From assembly GCA_951406725.2 (NCBI GenBank), contig OX597838.1:28892001-28956000 (forward strand): a DNA stretch of 64,000 bases, in the 5' to 3' direction. A program made the translations under genes and the position numbers. The notes beneath the pieces are model-generated. The model saw nothing but the letters and a program-made list of their open reading frames with translations. It was not told where the DNA came from and did not search any database. Origin of the DNA: Octopus vulgaris. Lineage: Eukaryota. Positions 1,151-8,841 of this stretch are shown here, piece by piece (position 1 is the stretch's first letter; each line of letters starts with the position of its first letter).

Positions 1151-1310
1151 CTGGTGAACGTATCCTGATTTTGAAGTCCATAGTTCTCTTTTCCAGCCAG
1201 AATATATCTAGGACATTGGTCGTGTTCACGACAGCATTTGTCTGTATGCACGCTAACGCCCAAGTCGGAGTAATTTGCAGCGTTATTGTTTATGCCACAC
1301 CATTTTGTAC
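1151..1310 (-). CDS. PLA2G3-like: Group III secreted phospholipase A2, coding exon 3 (catalytic core)
   Basis: Acceptor ctcttccttcatttctctgccAG and donor AG|GTAATT bound a 160-nt exon (phase 1 to phase 2). It translates (G)TKWCGINNNAANYSDLGVSVHTDKCCREHDQCPRYILAGKENYGLQNQDTFT(R/S). This carries the group III PLA2 signature PGTxWCG...TDxCCRxHDxC...GLxN with the His-Asp catalytic pair. Confidence 0.95.
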
Positions 1311-1400
1311 CTGGCAGAGAAATGAAGGAAGAGTCAACAGCGCTGCATATTCAGTTACGGAGAAAATTGCCGAAGAAGCGAACCATGACTAAAGCCATCA

Positions 1401-2722
1401 AACACACACATACACACAACACACACACACACACACTCACACACATAAACACACACACACACACACACGTATACACATACACACACACACACACACACGT
1501 ACACACATACACACACGTACACACATACACACATACACACACAGGCACACGTACACACATACACACACGTACACACATACACACACAGGCACTCACACAC
1601 ATAAACACACACACACACGTACACACATACACACACAAGCACTCACACACACACGCACACTCACACACAAACACACACACACACACACACATACACACAC
1701 ACACACACAGGCACACACACACACACACGCACGTACACACATACACACACATAAACACACATACACACACAGGCACTCACACACACAGGCACTCACACAC
1801 ACAGACACACGTACACACATACACACACACACGTAAACACATACACACACAGGCACTCACACACAGACACACACTCACACATATAAACACACACACACAC
1901 GTACACACATACACACACGTACACACATACACACACAGGCACTCACACACACACACGCACGTACACACATACACACACATAAACACACACACACACACGT
2001 ACACACATACACACAGGCACTCACACACAGACACACACGTACACACATGCACACTCACACACACACACACACACACGTACACACATACACACACAGGCAC
2101 TCACACACAGACACACATACACACACATAAACACACACACACACACGTACACACACACACGTACACACATGCACACTCACACACACACACACACACGTAC
2201 ACACATACACACACAAGCACTCACACACAGACACACATACACACACATAAACACACACACACACGTACACACATACACACACAGGCACTCACACACACGC
2301 ACACTCACACACATAAACACACACACACACACGTACACACATACACACACAGGCACTCACACACACACACGCACACACACACACATAAACACGTACACAC
2401 ATACACACACAGGCACTCACACACACACACACACGCACACACACACACACACACATACACACACATAAACACACACACACACGTACACACATACACACAC
2501 AGGCACTCACACACAGACACACATACACACACATAAACACACACACACACGTACACACATACACACACAAGCACTCACACACACACACACACACACACAC
2601 ACATACACACATACACACACACACACACACACACACACACACGTACACACAGACACACATACACACACAGGCTCTCACACACAGACACACATACACACAT
2701 GCACAGACACACACACACACAC
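1401..2722. repeat. complex CA-based satellite (motifs ACACATAAAC, CACGTACAC, CAGGCACTCAC, CAGACAC)
   Basis: Recurrent interrupting motifs within (CA)n; lies in the PLA2 intron. Confidence 0.9.
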
Positions 2723-2754
2723 AGGCCACTGGTAGTGACAACTGCAATGGCAAC

Positions 2755-2980
2755 GGTGGTAGTACTGGTGGTGGTAGTGGTGGTGGTGGTGGTGGTGGTA
2801 TGGTGGTGGTTGCGGTAGTGGAAGCAGTAGAAGCGGCAGCAACGACATTGGTAATAGAGCTGATGGTGGTGGAGTCAACAACAACAACAACAACAACAAC
2901 AGCAGCAGCAGCAACAACAACAACAACAACACCACCACCACCAACAACAACAATGACGACGACGACGACGACGGCGGCGG
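2755..2980. repeat. mixed trinucleotide repeats (GGT, AAC, AGC, ACC, GAC)
   Basis: Direct inspection. Confidence 0.9.
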
Positions 2981-3021
2981 GAAAAGCAAAGACCGATACA
3001 GCTTGGCACTAGAGACGTTGC

Positions 3022-3172
3022 AACCCATTTCTACAGACGGGTGAACTGGAGGAGAATGAAATAACGTGTCTTGCTCAAGAACACAACACGCAGCTCAGTC
3101 CGAGAATCGAACTCACAACCTCATGATTGTGAGTCCGACCGACACTCTAACCACTGAGCCATGCAGCTTCAC
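3022..3172 (-). mobile_element. diverged CORE-type tRNA SINE head
   Basis: Reverse complement shows A-box TGGCTCAGTGG, B-box GAGTTCGATTC and a CORE-like GTGTTCTTGAGCAAGACAC; homologous to 11719-12047. Confidence 0.7.
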
Positions 3173-3340
3173 CTATGAGTTTACCTATGAGGTAAATGCA
3201 TAAGAAAAAAAAGAGAAAAAGCTGAAGTGCAGTCAGTTTTTGGTCGCCTCAACCCCTCTGTTGGGCGACCGGCGTAGCCTTTTCGCCACTGAAAGCAGAT
3301 TCATGCATTGAGGGTTCTTGGCTTCTTAGAATCTTTATAC

Positions 3341-3986
3341 CAGTGCTTCTCAACCTGGATCCTTATGGCCCCTGATGGTCCATGTCAGATTTTTGGGGTA
3401 CGTGCAACAAAATAGTAAATAGTAAATTGGGGAAACCACAACAATAGGCGCATGAGTGGCTGTGTGGTAAGTAGCTTGCTTACCAACCACATGGTACCGG
3501 GTTCAGTCCCACTGCGTGACATCTTGGCCAAGTGTCTTCTGCTGTAGCCCCGGGCCGGCCAAAGCCTTGTGAGTGGATTTGGTAGACGGAAACTGAAAGA
3601 AGCCTGTCGTATATATGTATATATGTGTATATGTATGTGTGTGTATATGTTTGTGTGTCTGTGTTTGTCCCCCTAGCATTGCTTGACAACCGATGCTGGT
3701 ATGTTTACGTCCCCGTAACTTAGCGGTTCGGCAAAAGACACCGATAGAATAAGTACTGGGCTTACAAAGAATAATAAGTCCTGGGGGTCGATTTGCTCGA
3801 CTAAAGGCGGTGCTCCAGCATGGCCGCAGTCAAATGACTGAAACAAGTAATAGAGAAAAGAGAGAGAGAGAGAGAGTAATTTAAGGGTCTCTGAAACAAT
3901 TTTACTTTCGATGGTGAATGTATAGGTGTGTATTGAAACAGCTGGGTTTCTTTCTCTAACATTTTACATGGTTCAACTTACACGAA
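3341..3986 (+). mobile_element. hAT/Charlie-like MITE fragment interrupted by a SINE
   Basis: Begins CAGTGCTTCTCAAC. The parts on either side of the SINE at 3447-3876 align colinearly to 21452-21660. Confidence 0.6.
3447..3876 (+). mobile_element. tRNA-derived SINE, family A (CORE-like, internal TA/TG microsatellite)
   Basis: A-box TGGCTGTGTGG, B-box GGTTCAGTCCC, CTTGGCCAAGTG core-like motif, tail GGCGGTGCTCCAGCATGGCCGCAGTCAAATGACTGAAACAAGTAA; more than 10 copies in the window. Confidence 0.9.
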
Positions 3987-6266: not shown

Positions 6267-6394
6267 CTGTAAGGAGAGAATAGATACATACATGTATATT
6301 ATATATGTTATTTATATATATATATATATATATAAAGGGAAAGTTTACGAAAATAAACAAAAGACGAAGGCAGGTGGTGTACAAACAAACAGAT

Positions 6395-6598
6395 GTATTA
6401 GTATAGTGCTCAGGAATAGAAAAAGTCTTTTACGTTTCGAGCCTACGCTCATCGACAGAAAGGTACACGGAAAAGATAGATCGTTAGCTACTACACACAT
6501 TTTCTCTCTCCTTGTTTCTCTCCTGTGTACCTTTCTGTAGAAGAGCGTAGGCTCGAAGCGTAAAAGACTTTTTCTATTCCTGAGCGCTATACTAATAC
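6395..6598. mobile_element. fold-back element, probably Penelope-derived
   Basis: 74-bp inverted arms at 6395-6468 and 6525-6598, each carrying a GAnGA-GCGTAGGCTC-GAA(A/G)CGTA hammerhead-like motif. Confidence 0.65.
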
Positions 6599-7357
6599 CA
6601 CACACCACCATACCACACACCACCATACCACATACCACCATACCACACACCACCATACCACACACCACCATACCACATACCACCATACCACACACCATCA
6701 TACCACATACCACCATACCACACACCACCATACCACACACCACCATACCACATACCACCATACCACATACCATCATACCACACACCACCATACCACACAC
6801 CACCATACCACATACCACCATACCACACACCATCATACCACATACCACCATACCACACACCACCATACCACATACCATCATACCACACACCACCATACCA
6901 CACACCATCATACCACACACCACCATACCACACACCACCATACCACATACCACCATACCACACACCATCATACCACACACCACCATACCACACACCACCA
7001 TACCACATACCACCATACCACATACCACCATACCACATACCACCATACCACATACCACCATACCACACACCATCATACCACACACCACCATACCACACAC
7101 CACCATACCACATACCACCATACCACACACCATCATACCACATAACACCATACCACACACCACCATACCACATACCACCATACCACACACCACCATACCA
7201 CACACTACCATACCACACACCACCATACCACATACCACCATACCACACACCACCATACCACATACCACCATACCACATACCACCATACCACACACCATCA
7301 TACCACACACCACCATACCACACACCATCATACCACACACCACCATACCACCATACC
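6595..7357. repeat. 15-bp minisatellite ATACCACA(C/T)ACCA(C/T)C, about 50 copies
   Basis: Strict 15-nt periodicity. Confidence 0.97.
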
Positions 7358-7540
7358 AATAACAACAACATGATTTTAATGAATGAGATAAAAATTAGAA
7401 GTCATCGTATCTGAAGTAGAGGTCATGGAAAGATTGTTAAGATTAAATTAAAAGGATTGAATTGACATAGCCACAATGGTAGATGTTTTATTGTGAGCAG
7501 GGTCAATTTAATCTGACCCCAGGAATTTTGTCTAAATTTT

Positions 7541-7620
7541 GAAGCCTGGTGCAGCTCTCTGGCTGGCCAGCCCTGTCAAACTGTCCAACTTATGCTGGCA
7601 TAGAAAACAGATGCTATATG
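7541..7620 (+). mobile_element. 3' tail of an RTE-type LINE/SINE ending in (GAT)n
   Basis: GCCTGGTGCAGC...TGTCAAACTGTCCAACTTATGCTGGCATAGAAAACAGATG; related to 25466-25550, which also ends in GAT repeats. Confidence 0.5.
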
Positions 7621-7623
7621 AAG

Positions 7624-8655
7624 AGGATGATGATGATGATGATGATGAGGATGATGATGATGATGATGATGAGGATGAGGATGGTTATGATGATGATGAT
7701 GATGATGATGATGATGATGATGATGATGATGATGATGATGATGATGATGATGATGATGATGATGATAATGATGAGGATGGGGGTTGATGATGATGATGAT
7801 GATGATGATGATGATAATGATGATGATGATGATGATGATGATGATGATGATGATGATGATGATGATGATGATGATGATGATGATGATGATGATGATGATG
7901 ATGATGATGATGATGAGGATGGTTGATGATGATGATGATGATGATGATGAGGATGGTTGATGATGATGATGATGATGATGATGATGATGATGAGGATGGT
8001 TGATGATGATGATGATGATGATGATGATGATGATGAGGATGGTTGATGATGATGATGATGATGATGATGATGATGATGATGATGAGGATGGTTGATGATG
8101 ATGATGATGATGATGATGATGATGATGATGATGATGAGGATGGTTGATGATGATGATGATGATGATGATGATGATGATGATGATGATGGTTGGTTGATGA
8201 TGATGATGATGATGATGATGATGATGATGATGATGATGATGATGATGATGATGATGATGATGATGATGGTTGATGATGATGATGATGATGATGATGATGA
8301 TGATGAGGATGGTTGATGATGATGCTGATGATGATGATGATGATGATGATGATGATGATGATGATGATGATGATGATGATGATGATGATGATGATGATGA
8401 TGATGATGAGGATGGTTGATGATGATGATGATGATGATGATGATGAGGATGGTTGATGATGATGATGATGATGATGATGATGAGGATGGTTGATGATGAT
8501 GATGATGATGATGATGATGATGATGATGATGGTTGATGATGATGATGATGATGATGATGATGATGATGATGATGATGATGATGATGATGATGATGATGAT
8601 GAGGATGATGATGATGATGATGAGGATGGTTGATGATGATGATGATGATGATGAC
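7624..8655. repeat. about 1-kb (GAT)n array punctuated by GAGGATGGTT
   Basis: Direct inspection; ends about 20 nt from the PLA2 exon 1 donor. Confidence 0.97.
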
Positions 8656-8674
8656 GAAATCAAATGGACTTTAC

Positions 8675-8841
8675 CTAACAGTTTTGTTGCTGTTTAGACA
8701 CTCTGAGTTGATTTTATGCAGAACCTTGTCATGAATGTGTGGCTCTACAGAACTGCACAAGTGCAGAGAGAGGACTAATACGATGAGACAAACAAAAAGA
8801 CTTCTGAAAAGAACGTTCCTCATCTCCGTCTGGTACTTCAT
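8675..8841 (-). CDS. PLA2G3-like: Group III secreted phospholipase A2, coding exon 1 (signal peptide)
   Basis: ATG at 8841 has an in-frame TAA two codons upstream (alternative ATG at 8823). It translates MKYQTEMRNVLFRSLFVCLIVLVLSLHLCSSVEPHIHDKVLHKINSECLNSNKTV(S), with a hydrophobic signal-like stretch. The donor AG|GTAAAG is phase 2, matching exon 2. An upstream acceptor tcttctgatttcAG at 8897-8898 implies a 5'-UTR intron. Confidence 0.85.

What the first reader, a model, noticed from the sequence alone, without database searches (positions are those of the whole stretch)
1151..8841. Hidden spliced group III secreted phospholipase A2 gene (candidate cephalopod venom/salivary enzyme)
Seen: three minus-strand exons (167+134+160 nt) with GT-AG sites and matching phases (2/2, 1/1) give a 153-codon precursor: signal peptide, propeptide, then NVGLIFPGTKWCG...TDKCCREHDQCP...YGLQN. 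Exons 1 and 3 are absent from the ORF track. Known: this is the bee-venom/group III sPLA2 signature, and group III PLA2s have been reported from coleoid posterior salivary glands. Inference: the compact signal+pro+catalytic architecture resembles venom-type enzymes, but non-venom homologues are widespread.
Basis: partly seen in the sequence, partly recalled or inferred. Interest (0 to 1): 0.75.

Follow-up and report, generated by a model that had tools for sequence, protein, structure and literature searches.

The report
Annotated octopus group III phospholipase A2
This is a real, spliced and already annotated octopus gene for a secreted, bee-venom-type phospholipid-cutting enzyme, likely an ordinary body enzyme rather than venom, because the phospholipase reported from the octopus venom gland is a smaller protein that likely comes from another gene family.

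Summary
In detail: three minus-strand exons with GT-AG sites and phases 2 and 1. The gene continues left of the window with two more exons. Contigs of 7 runs from 7 studies skip introns 2, 3 or 4 exactly, so it is not a pseudogene. It is not hidden: the 222-aa product is GenBank CAI9740900.1 (Octopus vulgaris), with counterparts in O. sinensis and Argonauta. It is a group III secreted PLA2: PF05826 104 bits, His/Asp/Tyr kept, bee-venom fold Z 15.7. The venom reading is weak. The only PLA2 in a published O. vulgaris posterior salivary gland proteome is 154 aa and 17.7 kDa (PMC7693380). That fits a conventional PF00068 gene on another contig (154 aa), not this one. No tandem copies were found. 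Minor variants: a Cys-bearing insertion shared with Argonauta, and Asn at the third calcium-loop glycine. Tissue expression was not testable.

The parts
8675..8841 (-). Coding exon 1: ATG, signal peptide (hydrophobic core about residues 13-28) and start of the pro-piece with Cys48
   Evidence: equals P0011 residues 1-55
8842..8896 (-). Likely 5' UTR part of the same exon; a TTTCAG acceptor at 8897 points to a further non-coding exon upstream (inferred, not located)
   Evidence: contig X5 holds 534 nt 5' of exon 3, about 180 more than exons 1 and 2 supply
6267..8674 (-). Intron 1, 2,408 nt, GT-AG, phase 2, rich in simple repeats
6133..6266 (-). Coding exon 2: rest of the pro-piece, basic furin-type sites (RKKR, RSIR, RYKR) and first residues of the mature chain
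   Evidence: loose ends in 4 of 4 runs match its 3' end
1311..6132 (-). Intron 2, 4,822 nt, GT-AG, phase 1
1151..1310 (-). Coding exon 3: calcium loop (W104, G106, N108), His130, Asp131
1..1150 (-). First part of intron 3 (2,979 nt, phase 2), which runs off the window. Beyond it lie coding exon 4 (G000:C25:28890010-28890171 = L005:8010-8171; CxCD with Asp160, insertion with Cys172, Tyr190) and the coding part of exon 5 (G000:C25:28886734-28886779 = L005:4734-4779; last 14 residues and stop)

Best explanation
A five-coding-exon, spliced Octopus gene with no tandem copy found encodes a 222-aa group III secreted phospholipase A2 precursor that is likely an ordinary body enzyme for dietary or membrane phospholipids, not the venom-gland phospholipase. 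Shown: exon structure, splicing at three of four junctions, family, catalytic residues. Predicted: bee-venom-like fold. Inferred from the family: the signal peptide (about 1-31) sends it into the secretory route; a furin-type cut after RYKR93 frees a 129-aa, 14.7-kDa glycosylated chain; Ca2+ held by the WCG loop and Asp131 polarises the sn-2 ester; His130, backed by Asp160 and Tyr190, activates water and releases fatty acid and lysophospholipid outside the cell. The non-venom role is inferred from proteome data and copy number, not from tissue expression.
For: Exons and phases. One contig per run covers exactly exon 3 (4 of 4 runs) or exon 4 (4 of 4 runs) and continues into the next exons; 7 distinct runs, 7 studies, 3 organism labels. 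No intronless copy among the 6 matches in the genome. Identical GenBank model; O. sinensis differs at 1 of 208 residues. PF05826 104 bits, cut-off 22. His34/Asp35/Asp64/Tyr87 and 8 core Cys of 1POC kept. Model pLDDT 85.8; 1POC Z 15.7, rmsd 3.3 over 119 residues. The family is widespread: 1,624 representatives at E <= 0.001, with named hits in flies, moths, beetles, barnacle, limpet and snail. Gland proteome: one PLA2 in a table of 1,870 rows, 154 aa, 17.725 kDa; the PF00068 gene on C2 gives 154 aa, 17.626 kDa. Groups with Argonauta (99/93), not with scorpion venom PLA2s.
Against: No tissue data: run labels are coded and contigs cannot show level. The gland protein's sequence was not seen and its mass differs from the C2 product by 99 Da; absence from one proteome is not absence from saliva, and the supplement was cut when stored. 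The third calcium-loop Gly is Asn (Gly in 198 of 227 domains, Asn in 5), so activity is not assured. Deep nodes of the tree are unresolved. No signal-peptide predictor was run, only hydropathy.
Confidence: 0.72

Rival explanations
1. It is a second, so far unreported salivary or venom phospholipase A2 of octopods, used in prey digestion or envenomation.
For: Compact signal + pro-piece + catalytic layout as in bee and scorpion venom enzymes (recalled); exon 3 is 60-62% identical to scorpion venom PLA2s, its best non-octopus hits; PLA2 of unstated group is in decapodiform gland extracts (bioRxiv 10.64898/2026.04.09.716377, passage); a divergent octopod lineage (44% to Argonauta).
Against: Insect and barnacle proteins score nearly as well on exon 3 (52-59%) and better on the whole protein. 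The only PLA2 in the O. vulgaris gland proteome is a 154-aa protein. No tandem copies, whereas the C2 PF00068 gene has neighbouring paralogous exons. The spliced form stands in 7 studies, which is weak evidence against a single-gland transcript.
Confidence: 0.15
2. It is expressed and secreted but is a weak or non-catalytic PLA2 homologue, because the calcium loop lacks its third glycine.
For: Asn108 stands where 113 of 122 aligned proteins have Gly; the Argonauta orthologue has Gly.
Against: 29 of 227 family domains have another residue there, 3 unrelated ones Asn; calcium is bound by the backbone carbonyl at this position (recalled); all catalytic side chains are intact; pLDDT 94-98 over residues 101-130.
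Confidence: 0.11
3. It is a pseudogene or a chance arrangement of exon-like pieces.
Against: Open frame through five exons, exact splicing at three junctions, orthologues in two other species.
Confidence: 0.02

Closest known systems
CAI9740900.1 phospholipase A2-like, Octopus vulgaris (P0011); XP_029654150.2, O. sinensis (P0001)
   Same: All five exons translate into P0011 letter for letter, and its contig has the length of C25; O. sinensis is identical at 207 of 208 residues.
   Different: Nothing for P0011: this is that gene. The O. sinensis model stops at the end of exon 4.
GAB1608128.1 phospholipase A2 phaiodactylipin-like, Argonauta hians (P0049)
   Same: Likely orthologue: sister in the tree (99/93), same Cys-bearing insertion, same pro-piece Cys, basic processing site.
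   Different: 44% identical; keeps the third calcium-loop Gly; its eleventh mature Cys is at another position.
Bee venom PLA2 (Api m 1, PDB 1POC), group III, Pfam PF05826
   Same: Fold, His/Asp/Tyr, Asp35, eight core cysteines.
   Different: 7-residue insertion with an extra Cys, Asn at the Gly12 position, shorter C-terminal tail, longer pro-piece (bee precursor recalled); no evidence of venom use.
Coleoid posterior salivary gland sPLA2 (protein group 434 of PMC7693380; likely the PF00068 gene, XP_036356061.1 / CAI9717501.1)
   Same: Both are secreted His/Asp PLA2s by family.
   Different: 154 aa against 222 aa; PF00068 against PF05826; only 10 of 37 residues alike around the active site; another contig (C2). 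The link between group 434 and the C2 gene is inferred from length, mass and BLAST names.

Membership tests
Group III secreted PLA2 (PF05826) | Profile match above the curated cut-off | tested here: met
   104.1 bits against 22, positions 1-95 of 97
Group III secreted PLA2 (PF05826) | Catalytic His, Asp, Tyr and calcium-binding Asp (bee His34, Asp64, Tyr87, Asp35; roles partly recalled) | tested here: met
   H130, D160, Y190, D131
Group III secreted PLA2 (PF05826) | Calcium loop W-C-G-x-G | tested here: inconclusive
   W104, C105, G106 kept; position 108 is Asn. Gly in 198 of 227 domains, so not invariant
Group III secreted PLA2 (PF05826) | Ten cysteines in five disulfides (PMC3111613, PMC9550507, passages) | tested here: inconclusive
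   Eight core Cys aligned to 1POC; C206 and C210 may be the last pair; extra C172; pairing not observed
Group III secreted PLA2 (PF05826) | Bee-venom PLA2 fold | tested here: met
   Predicted model: Foldseek E 3.5e-10; VIA-align Z 15.7, rmsd 3.3, 119 aligned
Group III secreted PLA2 (PF05826) | Signal peptide and removable N-terminal region | tested here: met
   Hydropathy up to 3.8 over residues 15-23; RKKR, RSIR, RYKR before the mature start. By sequence only
Group III secreted PLA2 (PF05826) | Ca2+-dependent sn-2 hydrolysis | not testable with these tools
   needs an assay
Known coleoid posterior salivary gland sPLA2 | Same protein as the 154-aa, 17.7-kDa gland sPLA2 | tested here: not met
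   222 aa, 25.5 kDa precursor; the C2 PF00068 gene fits the length
Known coleoid posterior salivary gland sPLA2 | Enriched expression in the gland or presence in saliva | not testable with these tools
   Runs carry no tissue label; no group III entry among the 3 'phospholipase' rows of the stored supplement
Scorpion heterodimeric venom PLA2 | Common clade with scorpion venom PLA2s | tested here: inconclusive
   Not grouped in a 42-row tree, but deep forks are open

The most novel reading that the evidence does not exclude
Octopods have their own group III PLA2 variant in which a Cys-bearing 8-residue insertion and a conserved pro-piece cysteine (Cys48 / Argonauta Cys49) rewire the disulfides, so that the N-terminal pro-piece stays tethered after the furin cut. 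That would give a two-chain enzyme, convergent with scorpion heterodimeric PLA2s but built from the other end. For: the Cys-bearing long spacer occurs only in the 3 octopod proteins of 186 matched domains, and both genera have 11 mature plus 1 pro-piece Cys. Against: 23 of 121 relatives also have odd counts, the eleventh Cys differs in place, and residues 32-51 are no better conserved (7 of 20) than the signal peptide (11 of 31).
Probability: 0.12. Interest if true: 0.4.

Novelty: already known. Interest (0 to 1): 0.13.

Why it matters
Little as it stands: an annotated member of a widespread enzyme family. Useful by-products are RNA-type support for exons 2-5 of the O. vulgaris model, the note that the O. 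sinensis model lacks the last exon, and the pointer that the octopus gland PLA2 is likely the PF00068 gene on C2 and not a group III enzyme. It would matter more if it proved gland-specific (a separate recruitment of group III PLA2 into mollusc venom) or two-chained.

Tried and rejected
No RNA holder was listed on record; the laid runs are guessed RNA or unlabelled, and their depth was not used. Only 7 of the 24 listed runs were laid. A candidate acceptor near window 768 gives no PLA2 motif. Tandem paralogues: no second catalytic motif in the window or 60 kb to its left; genome searches gave two other group III loci, on C1 and C26, with 23 and 29 of 52 residues alike in the exon 3 region; such counts are lower bounds. 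Peptide words of this protein and of the C2 protein were not in the stored supplement, which holds few sequences, so this is uninformative. The single-sequence model of the Argonauta protein was useless (pLDDT 38.5). The pro-piece/catalytic-domain complex got no verdict, so the tether idea is untested. Ruder 2013 is not held. Eight paper searches showed no paper on this gene or on a group III PLA2 in a cephalopod gland; subscription journals and bioRxiv supplements were not visible and may bear on this. The ESM Atlas only repeated PF05826. Earlier scan notes: none relevant.
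Full report
Observation. Exon 1 gives a hydrophobic stretch typical of a signal peptide, exon 2 ends in a run of basic sites, and exon 3 alone matches PF05826 at E 2.3e-18. The introns are full of simple repeats.

Rest of the gene. The window is G000:C25:28892001-28956000 of a 2.8-Gb genome. A motif scan of 60 kb to the left found the predicted CxCD..F..CL exon, 162 nt, 2,979 nt beyond exon 3, with an acceptor in the right phase and a GTAAGT donor. A fifth coding exon lies 3,230 nt further and ends in a stop.

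Splicing. The run search listed 24 runs, 20 holding the stretch; 17 of these hold 0.43-0.50 of the words, the share expected from the exon alone. I laid 7 of them. On exon 3, 4 of 4 runs gave one contig covering 1151-1314 and nothing of the flanks, with loose ends matching the end of exon 2 and the start of exon 4. On exon 4, 4 of 4 runs did the same, with loose ends matching exon 3 and exon 5. One run was used twice, so this is 7 runs from 7 studies. The runs are guessed RNA or unlabelled, but no intronless copy appeared among the genome matches, so the joined form is best read as mRNA. Contigs give no tissue or level.

It is annotated. Exon 3 found XP_029654150.2 of O. sinensis at 100%. Its cluster also holds CAI9740900.1 of O. 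vulgaris, 222 aa, on a contig of the same length as C25. Each of the five exons translates into that protein exactly. The closest full-length relative is GAB1608128.1 of Argonauta hians, its sister in a 42-row tree at 99/93; deeper forks are open and scorpion venom enzymes form their own clade. The 42 rows were my pick from the roughly 200 proteins held.

Family and mechanism. The whole protein scores 104 bits on PF05826. Against 1POC, His34, Asp35, Asp64, Tyr87 and eight core cysteines map to H130, D131, D160, Y190 and their Cys. The model from a 122-row alignment has pLDDT 85.8 and matches 1POC at Z 15.7, rmsd 3.3 over 119 residues. A cut after RYKR93 would leave 129 aa, 14.7 kDa, with two N-glycosylation sites. 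Processing to the catalytic domain is described for mammalian group III enzyme (PMC3111613, passages). The Ca2+/His/Asp chemistry is established family knowledge, partly recalled, and not shown here.

Departures. The third calcium-loop glycine is Asn; Gly stands in 198 of 227 domains and Asn in 5, two of them this gene. The spacer after helix 3 is 22 residues against a usual 14 (146 of 186 domains). Thirteen domains have 20 or more, but only the three octopod proteins carry a Cys in such a spacer. A pro-piece Cys is shared with Argonauta. This allows a two-chain reading, but odd Cys counts are common (23 of 121) and the pro-piece is not specially conserved. The idea is untested.

Venom. PMC7693380 (passages and supplementary tables, stored cut) reports one 'unique' sPLA2 in the O. 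vulgaris posterior gland proteome, homologous to those of other octopods, cuttlefish and squid, and says sPLA2 is not proven important in octopod venom. That entry is 154 aa, 17.725 kDa, with best hits XP_014780833.1 and a centipede PLA2. The genome has a PF00068 gene on C2 whose O. sinensis product is 154 aa and 17.626 kDa and is unchanged within the exons here; paralogous exons lie next to it. So the known gland enzyme is likely that conventional PLA2. This is an inference: its sequence was not seen and 99 Da are unexplained. A 2026 preprint names PLA2 in squid and cuttlefish gland extracts without a group (passage). PMC5554399, PMC9501996, PMC4280546, PMC11861921, PMC7460484 and PMC9550507 were read as passages only and give no group for the cephalopod enzyme. 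The window's gene has no tandem copies, and other arthropod proteins are about as close to it as scorpion toxins.

Verdict. A real, intact, spliced and already annotated group III secreted PLA2; most likely an ordinary extracellular lipid enzyme (0.72), possibly salivary (0.15) or weakly active (0.11). Interest 0.13.

Noticed in passing
G000:C2:64835072-64859703 (+), L024-L026, L028; neighbours 64870268-64887153 (-), L027, L029-L031; weak matches near C2:110.85-110.90 Mb: Conventional PF00068 PLA2 gene of four exons and 154 aa, likely the PLA2 of the salivary gland proteome, with paralogous exons beside it. The O. vulgaris model CAI9717501.1 (181 aa) misses the signal-peptide exon at 64835072, which is present in the genome.
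   Followed up: partly
G000:C1:84209958-84210383 (-), L014: Second group III PLA2 locus; the catalytic part ends a 538-aa open frame, so it likely has a long N-terminal region.
   Followed up: partly
G000:C26:33688186-33690909 (+), L011, L012: Third group III PLA2 locus with canonical WCGxG loop and intron positions like those of the window's gene.
   Followed up: partly
window 40970-41821 (+): Remnant of a LINE-type retroelement, zf-RVT E 3.4e-8.
   Followed up: no
window 33584-33823 (+): GIY-YIG endonuclease fragment, E 1.1e-5, likely a Penelope-like element remnant. These two were the only Pfam hits among 93 frames scanned, most picked from the 135 complex frames.
   Followed up: no
window upstream of 8896 (-): Contig lengths imply about 180-310 nt more 5' sequence than exons 1-3 supply, so a non-coding first exon likely lies further right; not located.
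   Followed up: no
window 6155 and L005:8149: All four contigs differ from the window at one silent site in exon 2, and run X18 differs at one site in exon 4 that would change a residue; alleles or related species.
   Followed up: no
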